Positions 1 to 53,669 of a stretch of DNA of 64,000 nt are shown in pieces. Location: the IMG/VR virus record IMGVR_UViG_3300008267_000265, positions 15,662 to 79,661 of that record. One strand, written 5' to 3'. Under the pieces are notes generated by a model. The model did not search any database and had not been told where the DNA came from. It saw only the letters and a program-made list of their open reading frames with translations. The DNA comes from a virus. Numbering within the stretch: position 1 is the first letter of the stretch; every line of letters starts with the position of its first letter. A program made the translations under genes and the position numbers.

Positions 1-1580
1 TTGTAGACTGTATACCTACAATGAGCTGATGTCCACGATCCAGTTGCTTGCTGGAACATATTGTTCGATCCAACTATTGTAGATGCATACTTTGAGAAAT
101 CTGTTAGTGTTTCGTCTATTGTAAGTGTTGATGTTACAACGAAGTTTGATCCACTCTGTGCATTTATTGCATTAATTACAGTTCCAGTTACTAGTGACGC
201 TGTTTGAGCAAAACTTGCTGTACCTGCAAACTGAGATGTGTTGGATCCAGTGTACGCGTTAAAGCTCGACGTCGTCACTAATCCACTAGTATCTACTGAT
301 CCACCTCCTGCATTCATAGCATATGATGCTGTTAGTGCGTATGATGATGATCCTAATAGTGATCCTGTTATATTCGCAGCAAGTAATGATCCAGTTACTG
401 TAAGCCCGTTTGTAAAATTACCTGAGCCTGATACATCTAGTTTGTAGTTTGGAGTGGTTGTACTTATACCTACATTTGTATTAGCTCTAATATAGAGAGC
501 AGTATCTAAAATAGAAGAACCATTTCTTACTTGAATAAAAAAATCACCAGTATAAAGACCTGTACCTCCACCTAATGTTATTAATCTAGATCCTAATCTA
601 GCTACAGCTGTAGGACCATTACCATGAGCAAATGAAAATAGAGAAAATGTGTTAAGAGTTGTTGCTCTATTATATGTTGATATTGTAGATCCTAATGTCA
701 AATCTGTTAAATCAGTTTGAGAATCAGCGGTTGTTACTCGAAGTACATTAGTACTAAAAGTACTTCCACTTACTTCTAATCTAGTATCAGGACTATTTAC
801 TCCTATACCAACTCTATTAGCGCCTCCATCTACAAATAATGTATTACTATCTATATTTAGATTACCCAACAAACTCATAGTAGCCGCATTCATTACAATG
901 CTATCTGTTGTAGCATCGCCAAATGTCATATTCCCTGAGACGATTAGATTTCCATTTAAGACAGTTGCTCCTGAAACAAATAAGGATCCTGATGTGCTTG
1001 GTCCATTTATTGCTATTCTATATCCTAAATCTCTAATAGTGATACCACTTTGAGATGGTTCAAATACGAAGTTTCCTGATGAGGAGAACATAGTAGCTAC
1101 TACTGTATTTCCTGCGCTGCCTGATTGAAAAACTAGATCGCGTGTATTTGCTCGTATGATATTTGTTACAATGTGAGATGTAAATGTGTTACCGCTTGCT
1201 CTCATATCTCCAGATACATCAAGTTGCACACCAGGAGAGATTGTACCTATACCAACTCTATTAGCTGCTCCATCAACATATAAAGTATTACTATCTATAT
1301 TTAATATACCATTACCACTGCCTAGACTCATTGTGGTAGCGGTTAATGTAATAGTATCTGTACTTGTATCACCTAATGCAACGTTGCCTGATACGATTAA
1401 ATTATTTCTCACAGTAAAGGCATCAGCGCTTGATGCTGTGGCGGCATGAGATGCACTGACGGTGTTTAGAACATTATTAGCCCAGCTCGCAGTTCCAAAT
1501 AAACTACCCGTAAAGCTAGTTGCAGTTACTGATCCTGTTACATTTAGTGATCCTGTTACTATGGGTTGAAATATTCTCAT
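1..1580 (-). CDS. Tail fibre-like structural protein (partial, runs off the window's left end)
   Basis: Own translation from ATG at 1580: MRIFQPIVTGSLNVTGSVTATSFTGSLFGTASWA...; repeated NRVGIGT.SP...LDVSG fibre motifs; open to the window edge. Absent from the ORF track because it has no stop in the window. Confidence 0.75.
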   Translation of the reverse strand, partial: MRIFQPIVTGSLNVTGSVTATSFTGSLFGTASWANNVLNTVSASHAATASSADAFTVRNNLIVSGNVALGDTSTDTITLTATTMSLGSGNGILNIDSNTLYVDGAANRVGIGTISPGVQLDVSGDMRASGNTFTSHIVTNIIRANTRDLVFQSGSAGNTVVATMFSSSGNFVFEPSQSGITIRDLGYRIAINGPSTSGSLFVSGATVLNGNLIVSGNMTFGDATTDSIVMNAATMSLLGNLNIDSNTLFVDGGANRVGIGVNSPDTRLEVSGSTFSTNVLRVTTADSQTDLTDLTLGSTISTYNRATTLNTFSLFSFAHGNGPTAVARLGSRLITLGGGTGLYTGDFFIQVRNGSSILDTALYIRANTNVGISTTTPNYKLDVSGSGNFTNGLTVTGSLLAANITGSLLGSSSYALTASYAMNAGGGSVDTSGLVTTSSFNAYTGSNTSQFAGTASFAQTASLVTGTVINAINAQSGSNFVVTSTLTIDETLTDFSKYASTIVGSNNMFQQATGSWTSAHCRYTVY

Positions 1581-1583
1581 CTT

Positions 1584-4500
1584 TTATGCTATCTGTGTTA
1601 CTGTTACTGTTATTGATGGTGTTGCTGGGAATCCACTTCCTGCAGCAGTATACGGAAAGGATGTATTTGCTCCGTTGGAATGGTACCATATTTCGATATA
1701 CTCTCCTGCGTTTATAGATTGTGCAAATTGAGACGTTACAGCTGTTTGACTATTGTTTTCCAATTGTATAATCGTACTCGAATTATCTACATTAGATCCT
1801 GTTTTCCTAAACCATATACGTAAGGTAGGTGTAGTATTTCCTTGTTGTGCTAGTGCTGCGTATTGTATGTTATATAATCCTGTGTTTTCAAAAGTCATCC
1901 TACTACTACTAACTATACTTACACCGTCCTTAAAATATGTTAGTGGTAGTTCAATAGACGCTGATACGTTTTGAGTCGCTGTTATAGAGCCGGTATTAGC
2001 AAATTGAGCATAGTTAAATAGTTTGTTACCCCATCTTGTAAATGAAGAACCGCTTATAACGTTGATGTTGCCTATTACATTTAATGATCCTGTTATAGTT
2101 GAATTACCTGTAAGGCTTTGGTTTCCATTAATGAAGGACGACCCTGTAAAATACTGAGATCCGGTTACTGTGAATGTCGTATTTGAGAATGTAGAGGTGC
2201 CCCTTACGTCGAAGTTTCCTAGTACTTTTGTTGATCCAGTTACTATAAACTCACTATTGTGAAAATTAGAAGATCCACTAACTTCAATACTACCGCTCAT
2301 TACCGTATTCCCCAAAATTGTATTACTTCCACTTAGAGTGTGGTTACCGTAGAACGCCGATGTACCGTTAAATGTCTGAGATCCACTTATGTTAATTGAT
2401 CCTGATAGTACTGTGTTTCCTATTAATGTGTTATTGCCCGTTTGTGTTGTTGAACCGGTAATGTTGACCGATCCTGTAAAGTATGAGTTACCTACTTGAT
2501 TTCCTATACCTGTGAATGTCTGAGATCCGCTTATATCTATACTACCGCTTAAAACTGTAGTACCTATTAATATATTATTACCGGTTTGTGTAGTAGAGCC
2601 TGTTACACTTAGAGAGCCAGTTAAAGTAGTTAGCCCTATATTTGTGAATGTACTCGATCCAGATACGGTAAGTGAACCAGTTATTGTGTATGATCCACTT
2701 AGTTGTTTTGTATTAACCCAAACACCGTTACCGTTGCGCATTAGTAAATCTCCATATGCTAATGAACCTGTATTAATCAATACATTGTGAAGCTCATCTA
2801 ATTCATAGCCGTTATCCACTTTTACAAAGATAGATCCGTTAGGACTTGCTTGTACAACGTATCCTAATCTAACTGAGTGACTTGGGGCAGATGGTGGTAT
2901 ATTCGTTATTCCTCCAAATGTAGTGGGAGACAGATAAAGTCCGTCTCCATCAACCCAAGTTTCTCCTTGCAATGTTCCTCTTGTATCAATATTTCGTACT
3001 AATCCATAGGTAGTAACAAAACCTTCTTGGTTAATAGCTATATTCTCTGTTACTAATCCTATTGTATCTAATGAATTTGCATCACCATCTCCTTTAGCTA
3101 GTGCCACTTTTATTCTATTTCCTTGAGCACCATCCAATCTTACAACCTGATATCCTGCTTCTGTTAGGTTGGTTCCGGTTTTGTTTACGACACGGACTAC
3201 TTCTTCTTGTCCTATTTGTAAAGTAACGCTGCCTCCTTTTAATCCTAAATCTAATGTACCGTCGACATCATTCCATTTTAATCTACCTACTGCTCCTGCA
3301 TTTGATGCCGTTGTATCAAAGTCGATATAATCAACTCCTGATATGTAGGATGACCCCGACATTATGATAGAGCCTGTTAGTATTACATCTTGATATAGTG
3401 GATTAAGGTAGGATGCTGTTTGTGAATTTATAGCATTACTAGCACTAGTTGCCCAGCTCGCAGTTCCAAATAGTGATCCCGTAGCTCCATTTACTAAAGT
3501 TACACTACCGTTAAATGTAGTTGATCCTGATATTGATAATGAACCTGTTATTGTTTGGTTGCCTCTAAATGTATTTGATCCTGTTGTTGCTAATGATGCT
3601 GACTTGGCTACAAATACTGGATCTGTTTCTATGTAGTATGACGCTGTCTGAGCATAGTCTGAGAAAGTTGCGTATGATGCTGATAAGGCTGTTCCTGTTG
3701 TACCGCCCGTAGATCCAATAGCAAATCCACTTTCTTGAGTCGGAAATGTTATAATAGCACTTGCTGTGTCTACTAGTTGTATGTTTTCCGGTATGATTTG
3801 ATTATAGTTAGAATCAAATACAGTTATGATAGGTGTTCTAGTACCGAGATCGTGGTTGAACGTAAAAGATGTTGTGTTGACGAAAGATCCGGTTACGAGT
3901 GATCCTGAAATGATTGTTACGCCTCCGCCTGCAGATGCTATAACTGTTACCGCTCCTTGACCGTTAGATGGGAGGAGTGTTATACCCGATCCAGCTATTA
4001 GCTGCGTTACACCTCCATTTCCTGCTATTGCTGCATAGTCAGCAGAAGTTGCAGTATTCGACTGTAGGGCATGTGATGCACTTGTTACTGTTCCTACTAC
4101 GTTTGCCGCAGCTACAAATGAAGCTGTTTGTGCAGTTTGTACATACGATGCTGTTTGAGCAAATGAGCTACTGACTGCTTGTAATACGTAAGATGCAGTT
4201 TGAGCAAATGAAGCTGTTTGTGCTAGTGATGCTGTAGTTGCAAATGAACTACTAACTGCTTCTAGTACGTAGGATGCTGTTTGAGCAAATGATGCCGTCT
4301 GTGCTAGTGATGCTGTAAAAGCATACGAAGCTGTGCCTGCGAATTGAGACGTATTTGATCCTGTGTATGCATTGAAGCTTGACGTTGTAACAACCGAGCT
4401 TGTAAACGCATTGAAAGAACTTGTTGTTACGAATGATCCTGTATCGACTGCAGAACCTCCTGCATTTAATGCGTAGGATGCTGTTAAAGCGTACGATGCA

Positions 4501-5879
4501 CTTCCAAACAGCGATCCAGTAATACTTGATGCATTTAAGGAACCTGTGATCTGTTGACTACCTGATACTATTACCGTTCCTACTAATGTTTGTACATCGT
4601 CCGTGTTATCACCAAATATATTTGATCCACTTGAGTATATTACAGAGGCTGATTCGTAGGTTACATTTAGAAATGTTACCGATGCTGTTCCGTTTACAGT
4701 TACATTTCCATTTATCGTACCTCCTGTGAGTGGTAGATAGGCTGGTGCGAAAGATGCTGTTTCAGCGTAGCTTGCACTTCCGTATAGTGATCCGGTTATA
4801 CCTCCGAGTACAACTAGGTCTGTATCAATCTCTAACGAACCAGTTATGTTGTGGAGGTTGTTAGCATTTAATTCAAACTTCCTATCTACTTCTGTATCCG
4901 GTCCGCCTACAAAGAACTGTAGTGGTTTATTAGGAGTTGCATTACCAATGTGAAGATGGCTACCAGTAGCGTATAGGTATGCATCATTAGGTCCACCTAA
5001 GAATCCGCTGAAGTTATCGCTATTGATACCCATATCAATGTAGTTGCCATTCTCGTTTCCGTTACCTGCTGTTGCAACTACATCTGATGATGCATTCGTA
5101 CCTTGATTTGTATTTTGAATGTTAAGCTGTAGGTAGCTATTAAGGTTACCTTTACCGCTTATTACATTAATTGATGTTGGATTTGGTTGATAGACGTATA
5201 ATGCTTCTGGATTGTCTATTGTAGCATTGTCTTGGTTTATTACTACAGTGCTGGAACCTGATTGATATAGAGAGCTTGTAGCAAGTGTTGTATCTGTGAT
5301 GAAATATGGTATGTGAGTTGCTTTACCTCCTAAAATAGCTGATGCTGTTGTTGAGTTAAGAGCGTATGACGCACTCACTGCATTTTGTGCGTAGGATGCT
5401 GTTTGTGCGTTTTGTGCGTATGAGGCTGTTCTTGCATAACTAGCTGTCACTGCAAAACTACTACTCAATACCCTCATCGAACTAGTCTGCGATGTCAACA
5501 CATAAGGTGCTAACATAGAGCTAGTTGCGGTCAGCGGTAAGTAGGCTGGTGCAAAGGATGCTGTTGAGGCATTTGTTGCATTTAGTGCATATGATGAGCT
5601 GATTGCATTATCGATCGTACCTGATACGTTTACTGCGTACGATGCTGTTAGAGCATTTATAGACCAGCTAGCTGTTGCAGCGTAGGATGCTGTGCCCGGA
5701 AAAGATCCCGTATACGTAGTGGAAACTAGAGAGACTATTGATTGTGTAGTATCGACTTCTTGCTTAAGATAGACGGCACCGTCGTAGGTATTAATTGCTA
5801 ACTCACCTAAGTCTAGCGATGCGGTGGTTGGTATTTTACCTGGTACGGAACTACGTTTCAGTTCTATCTTAACTGCCAT
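1584..5879 (-). CDS. Long tail fibre / receptor-binding protein, 1431 aa
   Basis: N-terminal KIELKRSSVPGKIP...LGELAINTYDG fibre-anchor motif; TASYA/TGS repeats; beta-rich C1q/BclA-like C-terminal region. Confidence 0.75.
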   Translation of the reverse strand: MAVKIELKRSSVPGKIPTTASLDLGELAINTYDGAVYLKQEVDTTQSIVSLVSTTYTGSFPGTASYAATASWSINALTASYAVNVSGTIDNAISSSYALNATNASTASFAPAYLPLTATSSMLAPYVLTSQTSSMRVLSSSFAVTASYARTASYAQNAQTASYAQNAVSASYALNSTTASAILGGKATHIPYFITDTTLATSSLYQSGSSTVVINQDNATIDNPEALYVYQPNPTSINVISGKGNLNSYLQLNIQNTNQGTNASSDVVATAGNGNENGNYIDMGINSDNFSGFLGGPNDAYLYATGSHLHIGNATPNKPLQFFVGGPDTEVDRKFELNANNLHNITGSLEIDTDLVVLGGITGSLYGSASYAETASFAPAYLPLTGGTINGNVTVNGTASVTFLNVTYESASVIYSSGSNIFGDNTDDVQTLVGTVIVSGSQQITGSLNASSITGSLFGSASYALTASYALNAGGSAVDTGSFVTTSSFNAFTSSVVTTSSFNAYTGSNTSQFAGTASYAFTASLAQTASFAQTASYVLEAVSSSFATTASLAQTASFAQTASYVLQAVSSSFAQTASYVQTAQTASFVAAANVVGTVTSASHALQSNTATSADYAAIAGNGGVTQLIAGSGITLLPSNGQGAVTVIASAGGGVTIISGSLVTGSFVNTTSFTFNHDLGTRTPIITVFDSNYNQIIPENIQLVDTASAIITFPTQESGFAIGSTGGTTGTALSASYATFSDYAQTASYYIETDPVFVAKSASLATTGSNTFRGNQTITGSLSISGSTTFNGSVTLVNGATGSLFGTASWATSASNAINSQTASYLNPLYQDVILTGSIIMSGSSYISGVDYIDFDTTASNAGAVGRLKWNDVDGTLDLGLKGGSVTLQIGQEEVVRVVNKTGTNLTEAGYQVVRLDGAQGNRIKVALAKGDGDANSLDTIGLVTENIAINQEGFVTTYGLVRNIDTRGTLQGETWVDGDGLYLSPTTFGGITNIPPSAPSHSVRLGYVVQASPNGSIFVKVDNGYELDELHNVLINTGSLAYGDLLMRNGNGVWVNTKQLSGSYTITGSLTVSGSSTFTNIGLTTLTGSLSVTGSTTQTGNNILIGTTVLSGSIDISGSQTFTGIGNQVGNSYFTGSVNITGSTTQTGNNTLIGNTVLSGSINISGSQTFNGTSAFYGNHTLSGSNTILGNTVMSGSIEVSGSSNFHNSEFIVTGSTKVLGNFDVRGTSTFSNTTFTVTGSQYFTGSSFINGNQSLTGNSTITGSLNVIGNINVISGSSFTRWGNKLFNYAQFANTGSITATQNVSASIELPLTYFKDGVSIVSSSRMTFENTGLYNIQYAALAQQGNTTPTLRIWFRKTGSNVDNSSTIIQLENNSQTAVTSQFAQSINAGEYIEIWYHSNGANTSFPYTAAGSGFPATPSITVTVTQIA

Positions 5880-5941: not shown

Positions 5942-6424
5942 TTAGAAGGTTCCCCCGTCGATTGTATTGGTTGGTTCCATGGATCCTGATACGGATACGA
6001 TAAAGTCTTCGTTAGGTACGAATGGTAGATTTAGGTCTTGTGCAAAGGTCGTTGATCCTGATACATACAAGCTGCCAGAAATAATAATGTCGTTGTTAGC
6101 GGTTCCGTTGAGCGCACTAATAATTCTAAGAACGTGATCAGCTTTAATGATTGCTCCAGGATAAATTCCATCAGTTGAGATTGTACCGCTGGTAGGTGTT
6201 GGGGTGTAGATTATGATTGGTCCACCAACATTCGCTCCAGATACGAAGGATGCACTAGTTGGTGGTATATTAAAACCTGTTAAGTTATTAATTTGATTAA
6301 CTATGCTATTTACAGATCCACTTCCAACTGGTTGAGATGCACTTATAATATAGCCACTAGCACTTGGAATTAGGTACCCAGTCAAACTGTTTATCTGGCT
6401 TATTATATCTCCTAGTGTACTCAT
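5942..6424 (-). CDS. Putative virion structural protein
   Basis: 160 aa, SGS/SAS rich, ends IDGGTF (common fibre-associated terminus), overlaps the upstream gene (ATGA). Confidence 0.6.
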   Translation of the reverse strand: MSTLGDIISQINSLTGYLIPSASGYIISASQPVGSGSVNSIVNQINNLTGFNIPPTSASFVSGANVGGPIIIYTPTPTSGTISTDGIYPGAIIKADHVLRIISALNGTANNDIIISGSLYVSGSTTFAQDLNLPFVPNEDFIVSVSGSMEPTNTIDGGTF

Positions 6425-7281: not shown

Positions 7282-7282
7282 A

Positions 7283-7774: not shown

Positions 7775-7775
7775 G

Positions 7776-8963: not shown

Positions 8964-8968
8964 GTTAA

Positions 8969-9634: not shown

Positions 9635-9670
9635 ACGTATACCTTTTAAATAAATAGTTTATACTACCAA

Positions 9671-11146: not shown

Positions 11147-11488
11147 TTATAGTATTGATAAATTTGAACCAGACCCCACAGACACTGTTCCACCAAACCC
11201 AGTAGGTCCTATTAAAAAGGCGTTATGCTGCGCTGGTATATCTACGTTGCTTGTTATTGTTTGTGGATGCATAAACATCTGGCTGTTAACGGTGTTACTT
11301 GTAGTTATACTACCGCTTACTGCTAAAGATCCGCTAATAACAACGGCTTGATCATCTAAGGAGATCGCTGTTGGATTGCCAAGACCATCTGTTATATTTT
11401 TTAGCGTACTGTCTACTATACCGTTATCTACTGTTTTTAGGAGCGATTGATACGTTGAAGCTACCGTATTGTTTGTTAAAGCTGCCAT
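11147..11488 (-). CDS. Putative virion structural protein
   Basis: 113 aa; C-terminal IPAQHNAFLIGP..V.VGSGS..IL motif seen in phage fibre-associated proteins; own TATTTAT motif. Confidence 0.55.
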   Translation of the reverse strand: MAALTNNTVASTYQSLLKTVDNGIVDSTLKNITDGLGNPTAISLDDQAVVISGSLAVSGSITTSNTVNSQMFMHPQTITSNVDIPAQHNAFLIGPTGFGGTVSVGSGSNLSIL

Positions 11489-11584: not shown

Positions 11585-11881
11585 CTATTGTCCTGGTGTG
11601 CCTGGAAGGTACGCTCCTGAATATAGTATTGCTACTCCTGCTGATTGACTTACTGATGTGATTGCACCGTAAATGCTTTGGCCGGCTGCAAACGATGCAG
11701 ATATTGATCCTGTAGCAATGGTTCCAGCATTAGTCGTTAAATTACTAAAGTTTATAATTGCTGTTGTTGCAGTTACAGCACTGTACCAAAAGGCATCTAC
11801 TGAGAATGTTACTGATCCGCTTAGGATTTTTCCACCTGATAGACCGAAAGGACTTTTTAGTTGATCTACTATTTGAGGCAT
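11585..11881 (-). CDS. Small virion protein, possible head decoration
   Basis: Likely start MPQIVDQ at 11881, 12 nt after the TATTTAT motif; directly downstream of the major capsid gene; own terminator. Confidence 0.55.
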   Translation of the reverse strand: MPQIVDQLKSPFGLSGGKILSGSVTFSVDAFWYSAVTATTAIINFSNLTTNAGTIATGSISASFAAGQSIYGAITSVSQSAGVAILYSGAYLPGTPGQ

Positions 11882-11914
11882 AGTTGTTTTTATATAAATA
11901 GTTACTACTTGCAA

Positions 11915-45477: not shown

Positions 45478-48400
45478 CTACCCTGGTGTATTTTGATTTT
45501 CCAATAATTGTGATTGTATCGCAGATTGCAGTGTATTAATTTGAGCTGTTACAGTCGGGTTCGTTTGATCTGGTATTAGGAATCCGTACGATGTTGCTCC
45601 TGTTTGTTTGTTAAAAGTCAATACTATGTTTTGTTCGTCTTTATATTTTCTTAAAATTAGAACTCTTGTGATTAGAGATGGATCATTTACCCAATTTGTT
45701 ACGACATTAGGTACAACATCTACTACCATTGATCTTGGCGATGTTGGCGATGTTTGCTGTATTTGTGACGAGAGTACCTCATATGTCTGAGTTGTACCGT
45801 TGTCGTCCTGTAATACCATCGTATCACCTGCTATTGGAGCCATTTGTGAGTTCACATCCCCATACTGCGTGTATAAGCTGCTTGAATAAATCGTTGATCC
45901 TGATTCAAAATAAGGAACAAATTCATAATCAGTATACTGCGATATGGAGTTGTTAAATGTAATAGATGCTTCTGCTGTTGTCGTATTTATGATACTGGTT
46001 ATAAAACCTGATCCTGCTGATGCAGATGCATACGTTGTGCCACCTCCTGCTGTTATAGCTGTAAGTAAACTATTCTGGCCTGGTGCTACAGATGCTGTGT
46101 ATCTGGATGTTGATGGTATAAACCGATACTTAAATTCAACGTAATCAGACGGCTCTAATCGTATAGGTGTACTCGTTTGATCGAATGTTAGAGTTTTGAA
46201 TAATCCTGGGTTTGTAACACCTTGCAGGGTGTCATGAACAAAATATGGATTGATTGGTGACGGTTGCTCATTCCATAGTGGTAAATTTCTAGCAAATATT
46301 GGATTATTTAAGTCTGAACTTCTTCTTACAATTCCAGGCTGAACGATAGTTTGAAAGCCGGTGGAAGTTCTAGCTATTAGCGTATAATTTTGTAGCTCTA
46401 TCCACGATCCTGGAGTTCCCATTGACTGTCCTAACAATGTCTGAGTAGCGTTCTGTATGTATGGACTTTTCCGATATGTAGTGAAAGGTCCAGCTAGGAA
46501 AGTCACTGGGCCAGATGGTGCAGCTACTATAGCGTTTGTTTGGTTCTGGGTACTACCATACCATAAAAATAATACGGTTGGTACTGGTGGATCTTGCGTA
46601 GCAGTTACTATACTACTCGTAGTGTAGTAGTTAGAGCCACCGTTCTTTGCTAGTTGCCACTGCAACTGTGCTGTTTGACCAACATTAGTAAACTGTACCG
46701 ATATTAGAAGCTTTGTTCTAAAACTTTTAATTGCTGCTTGAGATGCTGTAAATTTTGGAAATGCTGGAGCTGTTTTGCTTCCCGTCTCGTAGCCTGTTCC
46801 AGAATCGAATGCTCCAAAGAAATTGTATACTATATTATTTGGACCTGTTGGTTTGTAAAAAGGTGTTGGAACACCTGATATATAAGAGTTATCTTCCGGG
46901 AATGGTGCAGGAATTGGACTGTTAGTTGCTACGAAAGTATCTGATTCCCCCTCACCAGCATACTGAAAATATAAATCAGTATCCGTAGATGTATTGTAGT
47001 ATAGTCTCGGCGTATACGAATACCCACTATTAAAGACTCTTTTTACACCGTCCGTTGATGATTGGTTGCCATACTTTTGACTATCGAACTGCTTAATTGT
47101 TAGCGTTGTTCCTGCTATAAATGTGTTTTGTACATCCTGCCAATTCTTATTATTTTGATTCAATTCTAACAATCCGCCTGATACATCTGCCAAGTATGCC
47201 ATCTTAGCATTTACTTTACCTGGTAGGAATGAGCTTGTTTCTATCTGAGTAAAGAATCCTAACTTATTGGTATAGTGGTTTATTACAGGCTCGTTTCCGT
47301 ATGATAAGTCGCCGTTAGTGTATACGTTGTATCTCCTGCCTATCAATGTCGATCCGCTATATCTTGCATTTATCGAGGATTGTAAGTAATAGTTGAAGTC
47401 TTGTAGCTGTGCATATTGTGAGTACGGTTGTTGACTCTGTATAACCGATCCTGTCAAAGCAGTTTCCTCTAGTGACTTTGTTATTAGTCCGTAGTTAACT
47501 GGAGTAGCTTGTGATCCATTGTAGTCTAGATCTAAAAATCTTTGCGATAGTATTGCTCCCGATACATTCTCAAATAACGGACTCACTGAGTAGGTTGTGA
47601 ACATTATTTGCGACCTACCTCGAATAGATGATGTTGGTGGATTACTGTACGTTGATGTTTCTTGTTGATCGAAGGGTTGCTCGACCATTAAGATACTACT
47701 ACCACTAAGCTCTCCGTTATACTGCTGTACGTTATCAGTTGATGCTACGTAGACTGTTCCAGGAGCTAGTGCTAGTGGAGCAGATGCTGTGTAATTATAT
47801 TGTACTGGGATTGCTTGAATATATCCTGTTGATGTTGTTATACATCCTCCTCCTGAGCCCGATACGATCACCATTTGATAGTACCCCTCATTGGAGCTCG
47901 TTATGTACGTAGGCTCGTGTCTTGGGTACTTATTTCTTTCAAGTAAATGCGATTTGATTATAATACCGGTTGCTGCGCTTGATCTTGCAGGTACCCAATC
48001 TCTTAGCATTTTGAAAAGAGAGTTGTTATAGTATTTAATCAATCTAATAAAATCCCAAACATTGTATCTACTTGTGTAATTTGCAGCAAAGTACGCATCT
48101 TTTAAGTTCTCTAATGGCGTATAGGAGCTTGAATACTGTAGTTGCGGATCACCTATCAGCTGCATTATGTTGAAATAACCTGGCTGGGCTGATGATGTTA
48201 TCATTCCAGATGAGGTTATTGCTGCGTTAATGGAATCGGCAGGTGAGAAACCTATTTCGAGATCAATAGAGCTCTTCATTAAATTATTCTGATAAAGCTG
48301 TATTGTTGTGTTGGTAGTTAGTAGATCCGACTTTATTTGTGGCGTGAAACTACTAGTTAGTATCTTTGTGCGTGTTAGTTCTTGTATTCCTGGTACTAGT

Positions 48401-50124
48401 TGGTAGTCATATCCACCGTACTCGTGTACTTGTAGAACGTCGTTTGGTATACCATAGGTCGTTACTAGCGCTCTAATACCTCTTTCGGTTCCTCTTGTCT
48501 TTAACAAGTAGGCTATATTGTGGTACAGGCGTTTGTATATTTCGTTGGTTATTTGTGTATTCGGTAAAGTAGCAATGCTTGATGTTATGTAGTTGGTTAT
48601 TACTTCTGATCCTGTTGGCGGTAGTAAGCTGCCATTAGGATTGATACCTAGCATTGAATAGTATATGTTATTTGATATGCTAGTATTTGTATATAACTTT
48701 ACACCTAACCCTCTAAGTGCATCTGCCACTTGATCCATTGATATACCTACAAATGGATTATTCTCTGCTGAGAACCTATTTGAAACATCCTTTAAGTAAA
48801 TCCAAATGTTGTCAAAGTGTTGACCTATCATGTTAAGGAATATCAAGTAAGGTTCGTTACTTGAGTCATCTGTTATATATGCTGGGGTTGTATATTCTAG
48901 TAGGTCTTTGTTGCTATCATCATAGGTGGATGCTAAGTAGTACATACTCATTGTTGTTGAAGTAGGTACTGTATTAATCGATCCTAGCCAATTTCTAGCT
49001 TGTGATGATGTTACTGAATATAGTGTGTACGGTTGAGTACTATTCTGTTTAGGCCATGCTGTGGAAGCTGATGTGTAATATAGGTAGTACTCGTAGCCAT
49101 CAAACTTCGTTATTATGTTATCAATAGTGTTTTGAAGTGCTATCTTTGCTGCTGCTGTGTTTGTTGTTTGTAGTCCAGCCGATGCCGATTCAATTAATTG
49201 TAGTTTGTATTCAAAGTTGGATAATCTCTCTGTTGCAGAGGAAAAGTGGATAAAGTTTGAAAAACTACTATAATCGACGTTAATTTGAATACCCTTTTCA
49301 TCCATCAACGACTGCAACTGTTGATATGATGAGGTTACCGCTGTGCTAAAAAGAGAGGTGTAGTTATAATACGGTGTTGTTTGGCTTACAGCATCATTGA
49401 TTGGCACTTTAAAGTTAGGGCCTCTCAACTGGAAAGCGGCAGCTTCTGGTTCTGGTTCAGCCTCTATTGATACATTAAATTCTGCTGGGTCTGCTACTGT
49501 TGTTACGACCCAGAAAGTTGACTTAATGTCAAATTCTATTGGTAAGGGTTCGTATAGCTTAAAGATGATGTATGCATCTTGACCTTCTTCAACGTATACT
49601 GCATTTACACCTATAATCTGGCGGTCCAATCCAAAGTTCAGTAGGAAATCTGGATAGTATGCATCGGCTGATAGTGCCGCGTTAAAATTAAGGAAAGCTG
49701 CTTGTAGATCACTGTTTGATAGGTCTTGCCTAGCTACTTTTATCTCAGTTCTAGATGTTGATATCTCCTTTATCCAAAAGGTTTGAGCTTGTGAAGATGC
49801 TAGCTGTCTTGAGAAAAAGTTGTATTTTATATTAACAACACCTCTATTATACCCTGCGTTTCTAGCGTCTGTTTCCGGATCTAAATATAGTACTGACGTA
49901 GTTCCTGTCGTAGGGTCTAAATCGCTGCCTATAGTATACTGTGTAGCACTGTAGTTGCTTGCTAACACTGCGTTTGATAGATCCTTAATATAGTACTCAA
50001 TATAATCGCTTGAGCCACCAAAAGTTCTTGTTATATTTGCAGTGTTTATTAAGGCCGTGTCAGATGGTTGATATACTTGGTATTCGCCATCGGAGCCTAA
50101 ATATGCAACTTTTACTATATCCAT
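45478..50124 (-). CDS. Large baseplate wedge protein, 1548 aa
   Basis: EIS.SRTE, F.HFSSA.ERL.NF.YK, MIGQHFD.IW, LLKTRGTERGIRAL (gp7/gpI-like KGT motif). Confidence 0.65.
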   Translation of the reverse strand: MDIVKVAYLGSDGEYQVYQPSDTALINTANITRTFGGSSDYIEYYIKDLSNAVLASNYSATQYTIGSDLDPTTGTTSVLYLDPETDARNAGYNRGVVNIKYNFFSRQLASSQAQTFWIKEISTSRTEIKVARQDLSNSDLQAAFLNFNAALSADAYYPDFLLNFGLDRQIIGVNAVYVEEGQDAYIIFKLYEPLPIEFDIKSTFWVVTTVADPAEFNVSIEAEPEPEAAAFQLRGPNFKVPINDAVSQTTPYYNYTSLFSTAVTSSYQQLQSLMDEKGIQINVDYSSFSNFIHFSSATERLSNFEYKLQLIESASAGLQTTNTAAAKIALQNTIDNIITKFDGYEYYLYYTSASTAWPKQNSTQPYTLYSVTSSQARNWLGSINTVPTSTTMSMYYLASTYDDSNKDLLEYTTPAYITDDSSNEPYLIFLNMIGQHFDNIWIYLKDVSNRFSAENNPFVGISMDQVADALRGLGVKLYTNTSISNNIYYSMLGINPNGSLLPPTGSEVITNYITSSIATLPNTQITNEIYKRLYHNIAYLLKTRGTERGIRALVTTYGIPNDVLQVHEYGGYDYQLVPGIQELTRTKILTSSFTPQIKSDLLTTNTTIQLYQNNLMKSSIDLEIGFSPADSINAAITSSGMITSSAQPGYFNIMQLIGDPQLQYSSSYTPLENLKDAYFAANYTSRYNVWDFIRLIKYYNNSLFKMLRDWVPARSSAATGIIIKSHLLERNKYPRHEPTYITSSNEGYYQMVIVSGSGGGCITTSTGYIQAIPVQYNYTASAPLALAPGTVYVASTDNVQQYNGELSGSSILMVEQPFDQQETSTYSNPPTSSIRGRSQIMFTTYSVSPLFENVSGAILSQRFLDLDYNGSQATPVNYGLITKSLEETALTGSVIQSQQPYSQYAQLQDFNYYLQSSINARYSGSTLIGRRYNVYTNGDLSYGNEPVINHYTNKLGFFTQIETSSFLPGKVNAKMAYLADVSGGLLELNQNNKNWQDVQNTFIAGTTLTIKQFDSQKYGNQSSTDGVKRVFNSGYSYTPRLYYNTSTDTDLYFQYAGEGESDTFVATNSPIPAPFPEDNSYISGVPTPFYKPTGPNNIVYNFFGAFDSGTGYETGSKTAPAFPKFTASQAAIKSFRTKLLISVQFTNVGQTAQLQWQLAKNGGSNYYTTSSIVTATQDPPVPTVLFLWYGSTQNQTNAIVAAPSGPVTFLAGPFTTYRKSPYIQNATQTLLGQSMGTPGSWIELQNYTLIARTSTGFQTIVQPGIVRRSSDLNNPIFARNLPLWNEQPSPINPYFVHDTLQGVTNPGLFKTLTFDQTSTPIRLEPSDYVEFKYRFIPSTSRYTASVAPGQNSLLTAITAGGGTTYASASAGSGFITSIINTTTAEASITFNNSISQYTDYEFVPYFESGSTIYSSSLYTQYGDVNSQMAPIAGDTMVLQDDNGTTQTYEVLSSQIQQTSPTSPRSMVVDVVPNVVTNWVNDPSLITRVLILRKYKDEQNIVLTFNKQTGATSYGFLIPDQTNPTVTAQINTLQSAIQSQLLENQNTPG

Positions 50125-50468: not shown

Positions 50469-50469
50469 A

Positions 50470-51810
50470 CTATCCTATCAATTTAAACATTAGATTTTGA
50501 CCACTATAGATTACTTCTTCTGCTGGTAGTAGCCTTAAGTCCTCCGGTCCGTATAATGATAGTGCGTTATAAATTGATTGCTCATTATCGTATACTGATA
50601 GTGGTCCGAAGGTAGTCGAATATATCTTCGTTTTAATTAATATACGATAATATCTATTAATTTCCAACCCACTTGTATATAAAGTAAAATAATTACTAAC
50701 ACTATCTGCACTTAACTTTGTATATTCGCTATCAAAGTCTACTACCATTTCATTCGTCTTAGCATCCTGTATTGCCCAGTATGTTTCCTCTGAAAAATAT
50801 AAATTCTGTAGATAGACTGAGGATGTTGTAAATTGTCTGGCTGGGTAAGTATTTCTTACCCCTGTTCTCATTTTATAAACTTCGTTCTGCCTAAGCTCTC
50901 CTGGGTTATTGATCAGTGTTACAGTTATTTGATCGTTTAGTACGTAGTTCGTTCCTTGCGGATAGTAGTATGCGTCGGCCCACTTAAACTCAATAGCTGG
51001 TGGGTATATTGTGTGAGTATCGACTGAGAAGAACTTTAAGTCTATAAACGATCCTGAGTTTTCTTCTATTGCAAATGGATGCTTTAAGATAATACCATAG
51101 TTAGGTATTGATCCTGATATCCATGCATCTACAATATTTGTGACATCCATATTGATGTCTTTATTGCTCATGTAATCAAAGCTCTGTGTTGCGCCGTAAT
51201 AGGTATACCAGGCTCCTCCTCCGTTTGGTAATGCTGGCGGTACGCTATTCCAATTTACAGGAATGTTGTTCCAAAAATTTGTTATGTTTTGCCACAATAC
51301 GTTGATGCCGTAGCTACCCGACCATGGAGCTGATCCGCTGTATGGACCTGTATAATCCCAACATACACCGTTTCTCTGCTCCGGTACATTTGCGTACATT
51401 CCAGTACCCATCTCCCATGATTGCGATACTGCGTAAGCTTCAATGGTGTATAATGTATTTAGGTTTTGAGCAGTTGCTAAACTTAACTGTAAAGATGCTT
51501 TCCAAGATCCACTAATTGATTGTGATGCAAAGTTTTGTAACTTTAATATGTCAGCATTTGAGAATTGTAGTAGTGGTCTTCTAATATCTGGTGTTGCTGG
51601 AACACTAAGTGGGATACTATAGTTATCGTTTACTGCTAAGTCGTAGTTGTAATAAGGTGATTTTGTCAACGGACTACGCTCAATAAACCTTAACGGGTCT
51701 TGTGAATTCTTCGCTGAGATTTCCAATATTTCATCTCTACCAGTATTCTTAGCTGGATATGATGAATAGACTGTTGCGTCTGCTGATGGAAAGATTTTAT
51801 ATATTGCCAT
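50470..51810 (-). CDS. Virion structural protein (DNRLRE-like)
   Basis: MAIYKIFP..DAT.YS..P..NTG.DEILE, W..GTG, DVT..V..W, NYG.ILK, FFS.DTHTIYPP. Confidence 0.6.
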   Translation of the reverse strand: MAIYKIFPSADATVYSSYPAKNTGRDEILEISAKNSQDPLRFIERSPLTKSPYYNYDLAVNDNYSIPLSVPATPDIRRPLLQFSNADILKLQNFASQSISGSWKASLQLSLATAQNLNTLYTIEAYAVSQSWEMGTGMYANVPEQRNGVCWDYTGPYSGSAPWSGSYGINVLWQNITNFWNNIPVNWNSVPPALPNGGGAWYTYYGATQSFDYMSNKDINMDVTNIVDAWISGSIPNYGIILKHPFAIEENSGSFIDLKFFSVDTHTIYPPAIEFKWADAYYYPQGTNYVLNDQITVTLINNPGELRQNEVYKMRTGVRNTYPARQFTTSSVYLQNLYFSEETYWAIQDAKTNEMVVDFDSEYTKLSADSVSNYFTLYTSGLEINRYYRILIKTKIYSTTFGPLSVYDNEQSIYNALSLYGPEDLRLLPAEEVIYSGQNLMFKLIG

Positions 51811-51812
51811 AA

Positions 51813-53669
51813 TTACATTGTTACTACTCGTCCTTGAATATCTGTGTCTGGGTATTTAACTTCAAAGATACTTGGATCTAGTGATGGATAAATTACACCG
51901 TTCAGTGTTGCTGCTGATATGTCGTAACTATATTGAGAGTAACCTGTTGATAATCCTGATAGGTTGCTGATTGTGACGTTTTGTACTGTTTGCACTCCTG
52001 CAACTCTATCGAGAAGTGTGTAGATCTCTGACGTAATGATTGGTTGGTTTATCTGCCAATTATCTCTTTTAAAATAGTCTTTTAGTGTTGTTAAGCACAT
52101 CGCTAACACCTCTCTCGTTGTGTAGTCAGGGCGTATGATTATATCAAAACCTACTTGAATATTAATTATGTAAGCTGGTTTCAGTAAAATTGTATCGGTC
52201 AGCATTCTATACTCTCCTAGGTAGGTTTGAATATTCTGTAGTAATGCCGGTTCTGGATTTGTAAAAGAGCCGTCTGTGTTGTAAGTCAACAGATATAATG
52301 ATGTAGCTAGTGCATCAGTCTCCCCTGGTTCATTCAATAAATATTGCGCAAAGACAGCGGAATCCTTTGTTACATATGCCTTTGCTACCTGTCCAAATTT
52401 AGCTGGCATTCCAAGCACCATTCCTAGATAATCTTGCTGCGTTACAGCTCTCATTTGTGATGGAAATTTAGCTAGTGTATTTAACTTTAGCTGACTTGCA
52501 CTATCTCCATCTCCGCCTCCTACAGCAACCTCTGGATTATTAATTGCGAGTGTTCCTTGAATTGCTGTTGCTATTGCTGGGTTTACTGGATTAGGGAATG
52601 ACGGTGTTACTTGTGCAATATTCGTTAGTTCGTTACTTTGCACATTTGCACTTGCGCCACCACCTACCAAGTAGGTTACTGTTAGGGTTGTATTAGACGG
52701 TGGTAAGCCGTATGAATCATTTGATACGAAGTTTGTTGGATCAAAAGCTGTTGTTAGTAGATCTAATCCATTAACTGTACCTATTCCAACATTAAATGGA
52801 TTTGGTAACGATCCTGATGCAGCAATAACACCTGCGCCAAATTCTAATTCTAATATCTTGCTGGTGCTGAACCTCGATACAAATCTTCTAGGTACTGGTA
52901 ATTTTTCTAGAATGTACGGTACCTGATTTGCTTGCTGGTATAGACTCGGATAATTAACAGCTGTATTTTGTACTGGATTCAAAATGTAATCTTGCGCCAA
53001 GTATGGTACTTCATACCATCTGTTACCATTGCTATCGTATACACTAAGTATCTCAATTATGTTGTCGTCTTGAATAGTTCTAAATGCAAATCTCTCAGCA
53101 CTTCCAAAAGATAATGTTGCTGTTTTAACTTGACCTGATATAGCTTGTGTTGTCTTTTTTAAGAGATATGTATTCGGATTACCACCTACCGTAGTGTAAA
53201 CAGATATCTCCATTGGATCGGCGGATGAGGATACGTTAAAATCTACCTTATTTGGACAATAGAAAAAATTAGTTGTGCTTACGTTGGATCTAACTTGCAT
53301 ACCTTCTTGAAGCGTCATTGCATAGTTTAAGTTAGGATTGTAGGCTGCGTCTGCTGGGACCTCTTGATAAACGTCTAAGTTCACAATAGCTGCAGATGTA
53401 ACTTTTGGCCTATATCCAAACATGTAAGCTAAGCTATATAAGCTATTTGTCTGCTTTGCGTACTCTATAAACGTTTCTTGTAGTTGATTATCTAAATAGA
53501 AGGATAATACATCTCCAACATAAGCTGCCATCTCAATAAACATCGTTCCTGGCGATGAAGTTGAGAAGTCGTTGTATGCGGTTGGATAGTATGCTTTTGC
53601 ATACTCAATTAGTGCCTGCCTAAAGCTATCAAAGTCTTTATTTAGGTATTTTATATCCTTATTGGCCAT
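51813..53669 (-). CDS. Baseplate wedge protein (T4 gp6 / baseplate J-like)
   Basis: YLNKDF..FR..L, YNDFS..SPG.MFIE..AYVGDVLSFY.D, GG...N, GG.D, RAVT..DY. Confidence 0.9.
   Translation of the reverse strand: MANKDIKYLNKDFDSFRQALIEYAKAYYPTAYNDFSTSSPGTMFIEMAAYVGDVLSFYLDNQLQETFIEYAKQTNSLYSLAYMFGYRPKVTSAAIVNLDVYQEVPADAAYNPNLNYAMTLQEGMQVRSNVSTTNFFYCPNKVDFNVSSSADPMEISVYTTVGGNPNTYLLKKTTQAISGQVKTATLSFGSAERFAFRTIQDDNIIEILSVYDSNGNRWYEVPYLAQDYILNPVQNTAVNYPSLYQQANQVPYILEKLPVPRRFVSRFSTSKILELEFGAGVIAASGSLPNPFNVGIGTVNGLDLLTTAFDPTNFVSNDSYGLPPSNTTLTVTYLVGGGASANVQSNELTNIAQVTPSFPNPVNPAIATAIQGTLAINNPEVAVGGGDGDSASQLKLNTLAKFPSQMRAVTQQDYLGMVLGMPAKFGQVAKAYVTKDSAVFAQYLLNEPGETDALATSLYLLTYNTDGSFTNPEPALLQNIQTYLGEYRMLTDTILLKPAYIINIQVGFDIIIRPDYTTREVLAMCLTTLKDYFKRDNWQINQPIITSEIYTLLDRVAGVQTVQNVTISNLSGLSTGYSQYSYDISAATLNGVIYPSLDPSIFEVKYPDTDIQGRVVTM

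What the first reader, a model, noticed from the sequence alone, without database searches (positions are those of the whole stretch)
1..53669. A [ST][GA]S tripeptide saturates outward-facing virion proteins: candidate glycosylation sequon
Seen: TGS/SGS/TAS/SAS occurs very densely in the fibres and also in unrelated folds. Counts by eye: 7 in the 160-aa 5942 protein, 3 in the neck gp13-like protein, 5 in the 50470 protein, 3 each in the 11147 and 11585 proteins, and 5 clustered in one insertion of the major capsid protein (FSASVSSAS, YSASI, LTGSI, CTGSL). I see none in portal, terminase, PhoH or the 579-aa internal head protein. A motif shared by non-homologous surface proteins is not explained by fibre repeat architecture alone. 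Established: some mycobacteriophages glycosylate their own virion proteins with phage-encoded glycosyltransferases. Inference: this is the acceptor sequon of a phage-encoded Ser/Thr modification that coats the virion (glycan shield), with the transferases at 33359-35250 as candidate writers.
Basis: partly seen in the sequence, partly recalled or inferred. Interest (0 to 1): 0.8.

Follow-up and report, generated by a model that had tools for sequence, protein, structure and literature searches.

The report
Ordered serine tripeptide on outer virion proteins
The outward-facing proteins of this uncultured T4-like phage and its relatives carry the ordered tripeptide Ser/Thr-Gly/Ala-Ser three to five times more often than chance; it may be a sugar-attachment tag, but no chemistry shows this, and the two sugar-transferase genes proposed as its writers do not go with it.

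Summary
Observation confirmed and extended. [ST][GA]S occurs 268 times against 76 expected in this 79.7-kb phage fragment. It survives shuffles that preserve composition within 10-residue blocks. It is order-specific: [ST][GA]T and permuted orders are not enriched. It is confined to fibres and the outward parts of capsid, sheath, neck and baseplate proteins. The bias runs through one deep T4-like lineage (freshwater relatives, Flavobacterium phage immuto, Microcystis phage Mel-JY01, Rhodothermus phage RM378). T4 lacks it (0.69x); lambda, T5, P2, SPO1 and S-PM2 show only weak excess (1.06-1.58x) shared by the Thr-ending form.

Both genes at 33359-35250 are real glycosyltransferases, but complete relatives lacking both keep the bias. 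The 34291-35250 family instead travels with poly-threonine tracts in neighbouring virion proteins: 52 of 80 loci against 0 of 80 controls, plus four unrelated cultured phages. In this window that protein is 41912-43651. The 33359 gene is sporadic.

What the tripeptide does is unproven. My best reading (0.4) is an acceptor tag for a serine modification written by other, lineage-wide enzymes. A conserved phage-only GT4 pair in the complete relatives is the best candidate. A purely structural strand-edge or fibre-repeat motif is nearly as likely (0.35).

This scan has noted both patterns before on other DNA.

The parts
1584..5879 (-). 1431-aa tail fibre, the densest carrier of the motif (76 sites against 10.5 expected). 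It holds [ST]GS-[LI]-x-[VI] six-residue repeats and TAS-[YF]-A repeats.
   Evidence: spacing peak at 6 residues
3..1580 (-). Fibre protein that runs off the left edge of the window (full length 592 aa on the contig). 18 sites against 4.3 expected.
9719..11107 (-). 462-aa fibre-like protein. 18 sites against 3.2 expected. It shares modules with the other fibres.
35330..37765 (-). 811-aa fibre with SNFIG-type repeats. 22 sites against 5.6 expected.
37777..40020 (-). 747-aa fibre, paralogue of 35330. 31 sites against 9.3 expected.
5942..6424 (-). 160-aa protein with 7 sites against 0.9 expected. BLAST finds no similarity to the fibres.
7776..8963 (-). Neck/head-tail adaptor (gp13-like). 3 sites against 0.5 expected. 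The sites are positionally conserved in G002, G003 and Mel-JY01.
11147..11488 (-). 113-aa protein with 3 sites (p about 0.02).
11585..11914 (-). 109-aa protein with 3 sites. This is marginal (p 0.04-0.12).
12859..13170 (-). Cluster of five motif sites (aa 549-652) in the major capsid protein (ORF 11974-14814). It lies in the stretch that stands where T4 gp23 has its insertion domain.
   Evidence: The AF2 model has low confidence.
43664..44749 (-). 361-aa baseplate-region protein. 7 sites against 1.3 expected. The excess is kept in G002, G003, immuto and Mel-JY01.
45478..50124 (-). 1548-aa baseplate-region protein. 13 sites against 4.3 expected. Orthologues have 8-16 sites against 2.3-4 expected.
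50470..51810 (-). 446-aa baseplate-region protein. 5 sites against 0.85 expected.
34291..35250 (-). GT-A fold glycosyltransferase with a DxD motif (D111, D113), family phrog_4417. Its family is paired with poly-Thr tracts, not with the tripeptide.
33359..34303 (-). KpsC/polysialyltransferase-like glycosyltransferase (HP motif K172-H174-P175; Q138...D142). It is sporadic: absent from relatives and from all 80 loci with a 34291 homologue.
41912..43651 (-). 579-aa Cys-rich tail-module protein with two mucin-like poly-Thr tracts (window 42392-42499 and 42149-42193). It is the likely acceptor of the 34291 enzyme.

Best explanation
Two separate things lie in this stretch.

(1) The tripeptide. [ST]-[GA]-S is a selected, lineage-wide surface feature. 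It is usually flanked by hydrophobic residues. In a beta-strand that would put the two hydroxyl side chains on the solvent side and the small residue inside. I read it as the acceptor tag of a phage-directed modification of serine, most likely O-glycosylation carried out in the cytoplasm before or during assembly. It would coat fibres, baseplate periphery, sheath exterior, neck and the capsid insertion domain.

The writer is not the pair at 33359-35250. The best candidate is a phage-only pair of adjacent GT4-family genes conserved in every complete genome that shows the bias. This contig is only 49% complete, and that pair would lie in the missing half.

(2) The enzyme at 34291-35250. It belongs to a different system. 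Its family sits just downstream of virion proteins that carry poly-Thr tracts, here 41912-43651, and most likely glycosylates those tracts.

Shown: the statistics, the distribution across proteins and genomes, the glycosyltransferase folds and motifs, and the poly-Thr association. Inferred: that any serine or threonine is actually modified, and by which enzyme.
For: The enrichment is order-specific and Ser-specific, and it survives shuffles within 10-residue blocks.

It is confined to outward-facing proteins or their outward parts.
- Sheath sites lie at aa 92-270, N-terminal to the conserved core that aligns with gp18 residues 466-652.
- Capsid sites lie in the gp23 insertion-domain equivalent.
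- Portal and terminase have 0 sites in all 8 genomes examined.

The carriers are not homologous to the fibres.

The excess is kept in orthologues down to 28-50% identity. There are 98 positionally shared sites and 60 lineage-specific sites against 37.9 expected in total.

T4 has no excess; lambda, T5, P2, SPO1 and S-PM2 have only 1.06-1.58x, matched by [ST][GA]T.

The lineage is rich in glycosyltransferases.
- The slot after the tail module holds different GT families in G000, G001, G002 and G003, including two PF11397 genes.
- G002 has a 20-kb sugar-nucleotide and GT island.
- An adjacent GT4 pair is present in G002, G003, immuto and Mel-JY01, with a single copy in RM378. It is absent from six control phages.

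Known cytoplasmic Ser O-glycosylation acts on Ser-Ala-Ser-type low-complexity motifs (PMC5796085).

For part (2):
- 52 of 80 loci with a 34291 homologue carry a T>=6 run, against 0 of 80 control loci (Fisher 1.3e-21).
- In 39 of 60 loci with enough upstream sequence, the run lies on the same strand, a median of 388 bp before the GT gene.
- The same pairing occurs in Staphylococcus phage PMBT8, Lactobacillus phage Semele, Enterococcus phage VPE25 and Chryseobacterium phage MA9V-3.
- Ten genomes without the GT have no such runs.
Against: No chemical evidence of any modification exists.

The link between the GT4 pair and the motif is fully confounded with phylogeny. All carriers form one lineage, and I could not break the confounding with deposited phages.

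In fibres the motif sits in a six-residue periodic repeat with hydrophobic flanks. This is what a purely structural repeat looks like.

About 62% of sites in core proteins are positionally conserved, which equally fits a structural role.

The GT4 pair shows no specific similarity to GtfA/GtfB. Its best solved relative is chlorovirus B736L, at E 7e-5.

Phage glycosyltransferases often serve other ends, such as DNA or host-envelope modification. Non-virion proteins show no avoidance of the motif.
Confidence: 0.4

Rival explanations
1. A purely structural motif. [ST]-[GA]-S would be a strand-edge or tight-packing element: a small residue facing the core, with hydroxyls capping the strand. It would be the core of the six-residue repeat of this lineage's trimeric beta-helical fibres. 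The same building rule would be used in the lineage's own outward beta-domains on capsid, sheath and baseplate. Nothing is attached to it.
For: Spacing between fibre sites peaks sharply at 6 residues, with multiples of 3. V/I/L is preferred before the motif and L/Y/I/F after it. The middle residue is restricted to G > A > S. Most sites in core proteins are positionally conserved among lineages. In the capsid model the sites fall at strand starts or ends, though that model has low confidence. The outward domains of T4 are not alignable with these, so the absence of the motif in T4 could simply reflect different domains.
Against: The motif occurs in proteins with no detectable similarity to the fibres or to each other. 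It is absent from internal beta-rich proteins. Thr is excluded at position 3 although it favours strands. Lineage-specific sites still exceed expectation, 60 against 37.9. The fibres of T4 show no such bias, and those of five other phages only a weak excess shared with the Thr-ending form.
Confidence: 0.35
2. A binding surface. Arrays of outward Ser/Thr hydroxyls on beta-solenoid fibres and surface domains would form weak, multivalent contacts with host or environmental polysaccharide. This is comparable to Thr-x-Thr ladders on beta-helical ice-binding or adhesin proteins. No modification is involved.
For: The motif is outward-only. The six-residue periodicity in fibres would align hydroxyls on one face. 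It is densest in the fibres.
Against: Isolated sites in capsid, neck and sheath cannot form arrays. Nothing explains why Ser rather than Thr is required at position 3. No tool here could test binding.
Confidence: 0.1
3. One reading: the two transferases at 33359-35250 write a glycan on [ST][GA]S.
For: Both are real glycosyltransferases and lie directly downstream of two fibre genes.
Against: G002, G003, immuto, Mel-JY01 and RM378 lack the 34291 family, and G002 and G003 were also searched for and lack the 33359 family. All of them keep the bias. The 34291 family tracks poly-Thr tracts instead. Unrelated phages that carry it show no [ST][GA]S excess in neighbouring virion genes. The 33359 family is absent from all 80 loci with a 34291 homologue.
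Confidence: 0.04
4. An artefact of composition, repeats or a DNA-level signal, such as selection for GATC/GSATC sites or a codon-pair effect.
For: These proteins are rich in Ser, Thr and Gly. GGATC and GCATC are 2.0-2.4x over-represented. GGA is the preferred Gly codon inside the motif.
Against: The excess survives shuffles within 10-residue blocks. Permuted orders are not enriched. The 268 sites use 132 different 9-mers. The GGA preference holds for any Gly-Ser pair. The GATC excess is confined to the reading frame that encodes Gly-Ser in motif-rich genes. The DNA pattern therefore follows from the protein pattern.
Confidence: 0.02

Closest known systems
Virion glycosylation of mycobacteriophages by phage-encoded glycosyltransferases (Freeman et al. 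2023, Cell Host Microbe). I know it only through citations and my own knowledge; the paper itself was not held.
   Same: The phage encodes its own glycosyltransferases near structural genes. The proposed targets are outward-facing virion proteins. The modification would occur in the cytoplasm.
   Different: The hosts, phage lineage and enzyme families differ. As I recall, the acceptors there are terminal tails of capsid and tail-tube subunits. Here the candidate tag is an ordered tripeptide scattered through folded outer domains and fibre repeats. Nothing here has been shown chemically.
Cytoplasmic Ser O-glycosylation of Ser-Ala-Ser-type low-complexity motifs in Gram-positive bacteria. Examples are GtfA/GtfB on serine-rich-repeat adhesins, the AST domain of Acm2, and the Ser-Ser-Ala repeats of the Lactobacillus buchneri S-layer protein (review PMC5796085).
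   Same: The acceptor is Ser with a small neighbouring residue. The enzymes are soluble GT4-type and act before export or assembly. The complete relatives of this phage carry an adjacent pair of GT4-family genes of about 480 and 430 aa.
   Different: The phage pair shows no specific similarity to GtfA or GtfB. The bacterial acceptors are long disordered repeats. Here the sites are single tripeptides flanked by hydrophobic residues. The pair does not lie in this window.
Heptosylation of beta-helical autotransporter adhesins (AIDA-I, TibA) by AAH/TibC (own knowledge, not checked here).
   Same: Serines within short periodic repeats of a beta-helix are glycosylated in the cytoplasm. This shows that a structural repeat and an acceptor site can be the same residues.
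   Different: The enzyme family is different and no relative was sought or found here. The repeat is 19 residues rather than 6. The targets are bacterial adhesins, not virions.
The phage GT-A enzyme family (phrog_4417) paired with poly-Thr tracts. It has been noted repeatedly by this scan on other DNA. I found no paper describing it.
   Same: The gene at 34291-35250 is a member (E 5e-60). It shows the same pairing here: poly-Thr protein 41912-43651 in this window, and a poly-Thr protein immediately upstream in relatives.
   Different: In this genome a DUF285 gene and two fibre genes have been inserted between the acceptor gene and the enzyme gene. This pairing explains the transferase, not the tripeptide.
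Virus-encoded glycosylation machinery of chloroviruses and mimiviruses (own knowledge). The best solved sequence relative of the lineage's GT4 protein is chlorovirus glycosyltransferase B736L.
   Same: The virus carries its own sugar-nucleotide pathway genes (GDP-mannose 4,6-dehydratase, DegT-type aminotransferase) and several transferases (for G002). It is thought to decorate its own particle independently of the host.
   Different: Those are eukaryotic giant viruses. The island was seen in relatives of this phage, not in this 49%-complete contig.

Membership tests
Phage virion O-glycosylation system (mycobacteriophage type) | Phage-encoded glycosyltransferases | tested here: met
   There are two in the window. 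Relatives carry many more.
Phage virion O-glycosylation system (mycobacteriophage type) | Glycans demonstrated on virion proteins | not testable with these tools
   This needs mass spectrometry or glycan staining of purified virions.
Phage virion O-glycosylation system (mycobacteriophage type) | Presence of the acceptor motif goes with presence of the writer genes across genomes | tested here: inconclusive
   For 33359 and 34291 this is not met: relatives lacking them keep the bias. For the GT4 pair it is met in 5 of 5 biased complete genomes (a single copy in RM378) against 0 of 6 controls, but this is confounded with phylogeny.
GtfA/GtfB-type serine-rich-repeat glycosylation | An adjacent pair of GT-B/GT4-like proteins | tested here: inconclusive
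   Such a pair exists in G002, G003, immuto and Mel-JY01. None lies in this window or contig. The contig is 49% complete.
GtfA/GtfB-type serine-rich-repeat glycosylation | Sequence relatedness to GtfA or GtfB | tested here: not met
   PDB sequence searches with both proteins return B736L, TreT and BshA-type GT4 enzymes only. No GtfA or GtfB appears at E up to 1-5.
GT-A fold, metal-dependent glycosyltransferase (gene 34291-35250) | GT-A Rossmann-like fold | tested here: met
   The AF2 model has pLDDT 96.2. The top Foldseek hits are the UGGT catalytic domain, glycogenin, XXYLT1, WbbM and Skp1 galactosyltransferase (E 1e-6 to 1e-5, TM 0.4-0.5).
GT-A fold, metal-dependent glycosyltransferase (gene 34291-35250) | DxD motif | tested here: met
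   D113 is invariant and D111 is at least 90% conserved in 32 homologues of 35-65% identity.
Plant HPAT/SGT1-type peptidyl O-glycosyltransferases (Pfam PF23452; GT95/GT96) | Match to the family profile | tested here: not met
   No Pfam family matches at E <= 0.01 for the window protein or for any of 32 homologues. The only trace is an Atlas lead in which 10% of one neighbouring cluster carries the family.
phrog_4417 enzymes paired with poly-Thr tracts | Poly-Thr tract in a virion protein encoded nearby, usually just upstream | tested here: met
   Window protein 41912-43651 has two tracts. 52 of 80 family loci have a tract against 0 of 80 controls. Four cultured phages show the same pairing.
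KpsC/KpsS and sialyltransferase-like CMP-sugar transferases (gene 33359-34303) | HP motif and QxxxD motif | tested here: met
   K172, H174, P175, Q138, D142 and R143 are invariant in 30 homologues. They align to the VKVHP and QTFND segments of KpsC 6MGC.
KpsC/KpsS and sialyltransferase-like CMP-sugar transferases (gene 33359-34303) | Significant profile match to the family | tested here: inconclusive
   PF07388 scores 18.9 bits against a cut-off of 23.3. The profile search against KpsC gives E 0.98. Some homologues carry PF07388 or a KpsC name in source databases.
Bacteroidota general O-glycosylation (D-[ST]-[AILVMT] sequon) | The sequon form, and action outside the cytoplasm | tested here: not met
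   The motif here has no preceding Asp and needs a small residue followed by Ser. Virions assemble in the cytoplasm (established knowledge).

The most novel reading that the evidence does not exclude
One virion carries two independent sugar-attachment codes. The first is the ordered tripeptide [ST][GA]S on capsid, sheath, neck, baseplate and fibres, written by a phage-only GT4 pair conserved across an abundant aquatic T4-like lineage. The second is poly-Thr tracts on a tail protein, written by the GT-A enzyme at 34291-35250. Together they would give these phages a self-made glycan coat. The variable transferase cassette after the tail module would diversify the glycan.
Probability: 0.25. Interest if true: 0.85.

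Novelty: new variant of a known kind. Interest (0 to 1): 0.62.

Why it matters
Self-glycosylation of phage particles has been shown experimentally only for mycobacteriophages. If the tripeptide is an acceptor tag, it would be the first short, sequence-defined O-glycosylation code for tailed-phage virions. It would be found in a widespread aquatic T4-like lineage that has a cultivable member, Flavobacterium phage immuto. Glycan coats on virions could then be predicted from sequence. This bears on adsorption, stability, grazing and recognition of phages in nature.

Even if the motif is purely structural, it marks a lineage-specific building rule for outward domains.

The reassignment of the 34291 enzyme to poly-Thr tracts also corrects an attractive but wrong pairing of enzyme and motif.

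Tried and rejected
- Composition artefact: rejected by whole-protein shuffles and by shuffles within 40-, 20- and 10-residue blocks.
- Generic small-polar richness: rejected, because permuted orders and [ST][GA]T are not enriched.
- DNA-level signal (GATC/GSATC, a fixed 9-mer, codon pairs): rejected.
- Spread of one homologous fibre module into other proteins: the fibres share modules only with each other.
- A general property of T4-like or other phage virions: rejected with T4, lambda, T5, P2, SPO1 and S-PM2.
- The 34291 and 33359 genes as writers: rejected on distribution.
- HPAT membership of the 34291 product: no profile match.
- Homology between the 34291 family and the PF11397 enzymes that fill the same slot in G002: none (hhalign probability 2.9%).
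- PDB sequence relatives of the 34291 product and of the big fibre: none that are meaningful. The TALE-repeat hits are spurious summed repeats.
- AF2 model of the capsid protein to map the sites: overall pLDDT is 52.8 and only the insertion region reaches 60-85, so it serves only as a weak hint.
- My first impression that most sites turn over between orthologues: corrected. With a better alignment and a tolerance of 3 columns, 98 sites are shared and 60 are lineage-specific.
- Breaking the phylogenetic confounding of the GT4 pair using deposited phages: failed. The GT4 protein, the capsid type and the baseplate protein occur in the same few records.

Full report
**What the window is.**
All genes lie on the minus strand. 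The window is bases 15662-79661 of a single 79.7-kb viral contig. CheckV rates the contig 49% complete.

It is the structural half of a distant T4-like myovirus.
- The gp23-type major capsid protein is at 11974-14814. Its nearest deposited relative is Flavobacterium phage immuto at 56% identity, followed by Microcystis phage Mel-JY01 and Rhodothermus phage RM378.
- Portal, large terminase, prohead protease, PhoH, a neck adaptor, and gp6-like and gp25-like baseplate proteins are present.
- Sheath, tape measure and further fibres lie left of the window.

Hundreds of uncultured relatives exist in IMG/VR. I used four viral records:
- G000: this contig.
- G001: 95 kb, 57% complete, capsid 84% identical.
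- G002: 174 kb, complete, capsid about 68% identical.
- G003: 183 kb, complete, capsid about 67% identical.

Every count made by eye was reproduced. Across the window's 64 proteins there are 227 [ST][GA]S sites against 57.6 expected from shuffling each protein. On the whole contig there are 268 against 76.

Shuffling only within blocks of 40, 20 or 10 residues keeps local composition and leaves the excess almost unchanged. Fibres stay at 4.6-4.9x and other virion proteins at 3.5-3.7x.

The excess depends on residue order.
- [ST][GA]T is 0.6x in fibres and 0.95x in the other virion proteins.
- The permuted orders are near 1x.
- With [ST]-x-S, only x = G (about 5x), A (2.4-4.3x) and S (1.5-2.1x) are enriched.
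- Hydrophobic residues are preferred just before and just after the tripeptide.

It is not a DNA signal. The 268 sites use 132 different 9-mers. The GGA codon preference applies to any Gly-Ser pair. The GATC excess is confined to the frame that encodes Gly-Ser in the motif-rich genes.

**Where the motif is.**
It is dense in six mosaic fibres, where the spacing between sites peaks sharply at six residues. It is also significantly enriched in proteins that share no detectable similarity with the fibres or with each other:
- the 160-aa 5942 protein;
- the neck protein;
- the baseplate-region proteins 43664, 45478 and 50470;
- the tail sheath;
- less strongly, the capsid protein.

In the sheath all seven sites lie in aa 92-270. 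That is N-terminal of the core that aligns to T4 gp18 residues 466-652. By what is established for gp18, this is the exterior part.

In the capsid protein the five sites lie between the two stretches that align to gp23. This is where gp23 has its outward insertion domain.

Portal and terminase have no site in any of eight genomes. Tape measure, the gp25-like protein and the replication proteins are at or below expectation.

**It is a trait of one lineage.**
The table gives observed-over-expected ratios for the motif and for its Thr-ending counterpart.

| Genome | [ST][GA]S | [ST][GA]T |
|---|---|---|
| G000 | 3.5 | 0.72 |
| G001 | 3.2 | 0.73 |
| G002 | 3.1 | 1.05 |
| G003 | 2.7 | 1.04 |
| immuto | 2.1 | 1.5 |
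| Mel-JY01 | 2.1 | 2.3 (one ORF has 75 such sites) |
| RM378 | 2.2 | 1.1 |
| T4 (about 94 kb examined, including the structural genes) | 0.69 | 1.17 |
| lambda | 1.5 | 1.2 |
| T5 | 1.2 | 1.15 |
| P2 | 1.6 | 1.2 |
| SPO1 | 1.06 | 1.4 |
| S-PM2 | 1.4 | 1.4 |

No T4 virion protein is enriched.

The orthologous capsid, neck, sheath, 43664, 45478 and 50470 proteins keep three- to six-fold excesses down to 28-50% identity. Seventy-six capsid orthologues average 5.2 sites against 1.5 expected, clustered in the insertion region.

With a careful alignment and a tolerance of three columns, 98 sites are shared between at least two of four lineages and 60 are lineage-specific. The composition expectation for all sites is 37.9. 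So there is a conserved core of sites plus a moderate continuing excess of new ones. My first impression of mostly unique sites was inflated by alignment noise.

**The two transferase genes.**
The product of 34291-35250 belongs to phrog_4417 and has thousands of viral homologues.
- It folds with pLDDT 96 into a GT-A domain whose nearest solved folds are GT24/GT8-type enzymes.
- It keeps a DxD motif.
- Family members are often fused to further transferase, methyltransferase or radical-SAM domains.
- No Pfam model, HPAT included, matches it or 31 relatives.

The product of 33359-34303 is KpsC/polysialyltransferase-like. It has invariant HP and QxxxD motifs, but its profile scores are only borderline.

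Both are therefore real glycosyltransferases.

**They are not the writers of the tripeptide.**
Profile searches find neither family in the complete genomes G002 and G003. The 34291 family is also absent from immuto, Mel-JY01 and RM378. All of these genomes carry the bias.

The 33359 family is absent from G001 and from all 80 viral loci that carry a 34291 homologue.

**What the 34291 enzyme goes with instead.**
In four unrelated cultured phages the homologue lies in the structural module directly after proteins that carry poly-Thr tracts:
- Staphylococcus phage PMBT8: a run of 16 Thr at the end of the upstream frame.
- Lactobacillus phage Semele: two such proteins.
- Enterococcus phage VPE25: a poly-Thr frame overlapping the end of the capsid gene, and a poly-Thr tail on the major tail protein.
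- Chryseobacterium phage MA9V-3: two such proteins.

This window has such a protein at 41912-43651, with two tracts. G001 has one with a run of 27 residues, nearly all Thr.

Of 80 viral loci with a homologue, 52 hold a run of six or more Thr in an open frame, against 0 of 80 capsid loci of the same clade (Fisher 1.3e-21). Where enough upstream sequence exists, 39 of 60 have the run on the same strand, a median of 388 bp before the enzyme gene.

Ten genomes without the enzyme have no such run.

In close relatives the gene order is: 43664 homologue, poly-Thr protein, enzyme, 32968 homologue. Here a DUF285 gene and two fibre genes are inserted between the poly-Thr protein and the enzyme.

The neighbours of the enzyme in the four cultured phages show no [ST][GA]S excess.

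I reached this pairing before consulting the scan's notes. They report the same pairing on many other genomes. I found no paper describing it.

**What could write the tripeptide, if anything.**
Every genome with the bias has other transferases.
- The slot between the tail module and the 32968 homologue holds different families in different relatives. In G002 and G003 it holds two PF11397 genes, a family that did not ring in any of 14 control bacterial genomes.
- G001 has GT1-family, GT2-family and sulfotransferase genes among its fibre genes.
- G002 has a 20-kb island with GDP-mannose 4,6-dehydratase, epimerases, a DegT aminotransferase and several transferases.

One element is conserved across the lineage. 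It is an adjacent pair of GT4-family genes of about 480 and 430 aa in G002, G003, immuto and Mel-JY01, with a single copy in RM378. The pair is absent from the six control phages.
- The larger protein belongs to a virus-only cluster of over a thousand members.
- Its best solved relative is a chlorovirus transferase.
- It shows no specific likeness to GtfA or GtfB.

This makes the pair the best candidate for a conserved writer. However, its distribution coincides exactly with the lineage, so the association may be no more than shared ancestry. This contig and G001 are too incomplete to say whether they carry the pair. Earlier notes of this scan report the same motif and a transferase pair in other T4-like phages. 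I could not test that claim beyond the genomes above.

**Weighing the readings.**
For a modification tag:
- the strict order and the Ser requirement;
- the restriction to outward surfaces of unrelated folds;
- maintenance over deep divergence, with extra lineage-specific sites;
- its near-absence from other phages;
- the transferase-rich genomes.

Known cytoplasmic systems glycosylate Ser in Ser-Ala-Ser-type motifs (PMC5796085).

For a purely structural motif:
- the six-residue periodicity in fibres;
- the hydrophobic flanks;
- the majority of positionally conserved sites;
- the hint that capsid sites sit at strand ends (low confidence).

The two readings are not exclusive, since glycosylated serines in beta-helical adhesin repeats are known (own knowledge).

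I put a serine-modification tag written by enzymes other than the named pair at 0.40.

**Verdict.**
A sequon remains a live, testable idea, but the proposed writers are wrong. One of them belongs to a separate poly-Thr system. The decisive experiment is glycoproteomics on virions of the cultivable relative, immuto.

Noticed in passing
window 11974-14814: The capsid ORF is 946 aa and has a roughly 400-aa highly acidic, coiled N-terminal part. Capsid ORFs of 76 relatives are 543-604 aa. This may be a scaffold-like protein fused in frame to the capsid protein, or an internal start may be used.
   Followed up: no
L162 (Enterococcus phage VPE25) 2728-2883: A 52-codon open frame encoding poly-Thr repeats overlaps the last codons of the capsid gene in another frame, just before the 34291-type transferase gene. 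This suggests a frameshifted capsid form with a poly-Thr tail.
   Followed up: partly
L088 (G002) 7411-9934; G003 571-2728: Two tandem PF11397 (GlcNAc-transferase family) genes fill the slot after the tail module in both complete relatives. The family did not ring in any of 14 control bacterial genomes, nor in immuto, Mel-JY01 or RM378.
   Followed up: partly
L090/L110 (G002) about 141000-161000: A roughly 20-kb one-strand island holds GDP-mannose 4,6-dehydratase, two epimerases, a DegT-type aminotransferase, GT2, GT17-like and GT4 genes. This is a virus-encoded glycan pathway.
   Followed up: partly
L093 (G001) 9761-10582: A sulfotransferase gene (PF13469, E 5e-18) lies among fibre genes, next to GT1- and GT2-family genes.
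   Followed up: no
window 40062-41891: A 609-aa protein consists of five DUF285 repeats (E 3e-127). It is inserted between the poly-Thr protein and the fibres. Only one of the 80 loci with a 34291 homologue has a homologue of it.
   Followed up: no
Mel-JY01 635-3052 (L134): An 805-aa ORF has 75 [ST][GA]T sites against 13.6 expected, the opposite third-position preference. It lies next to a 1227-aa ORF with a GT4 domain.
   Followed up: no
contig 6264-13543 (left of the window; L082): Four paralogous Gly_rich_2 (PF21722) proteins lie around the sheath gene. One of them (6264-7460) is motif-enriched, 10 against 3.7 expected; the other three are not.
   Followed up: no
window 30373-31065: A 230-aa protein has a weak O-fucosyltransferase-like match (PF10250, E 0.006, below cut-off). 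A homologue is present in G001 but not in G002.
   Followed up: no
whole contig: GGA is preferred over GGT for Gly whenever Ser follows (55-60% against 39-42% elsewhere). This gives a GATC excess confined to one reading frame.
   Followed up: yes
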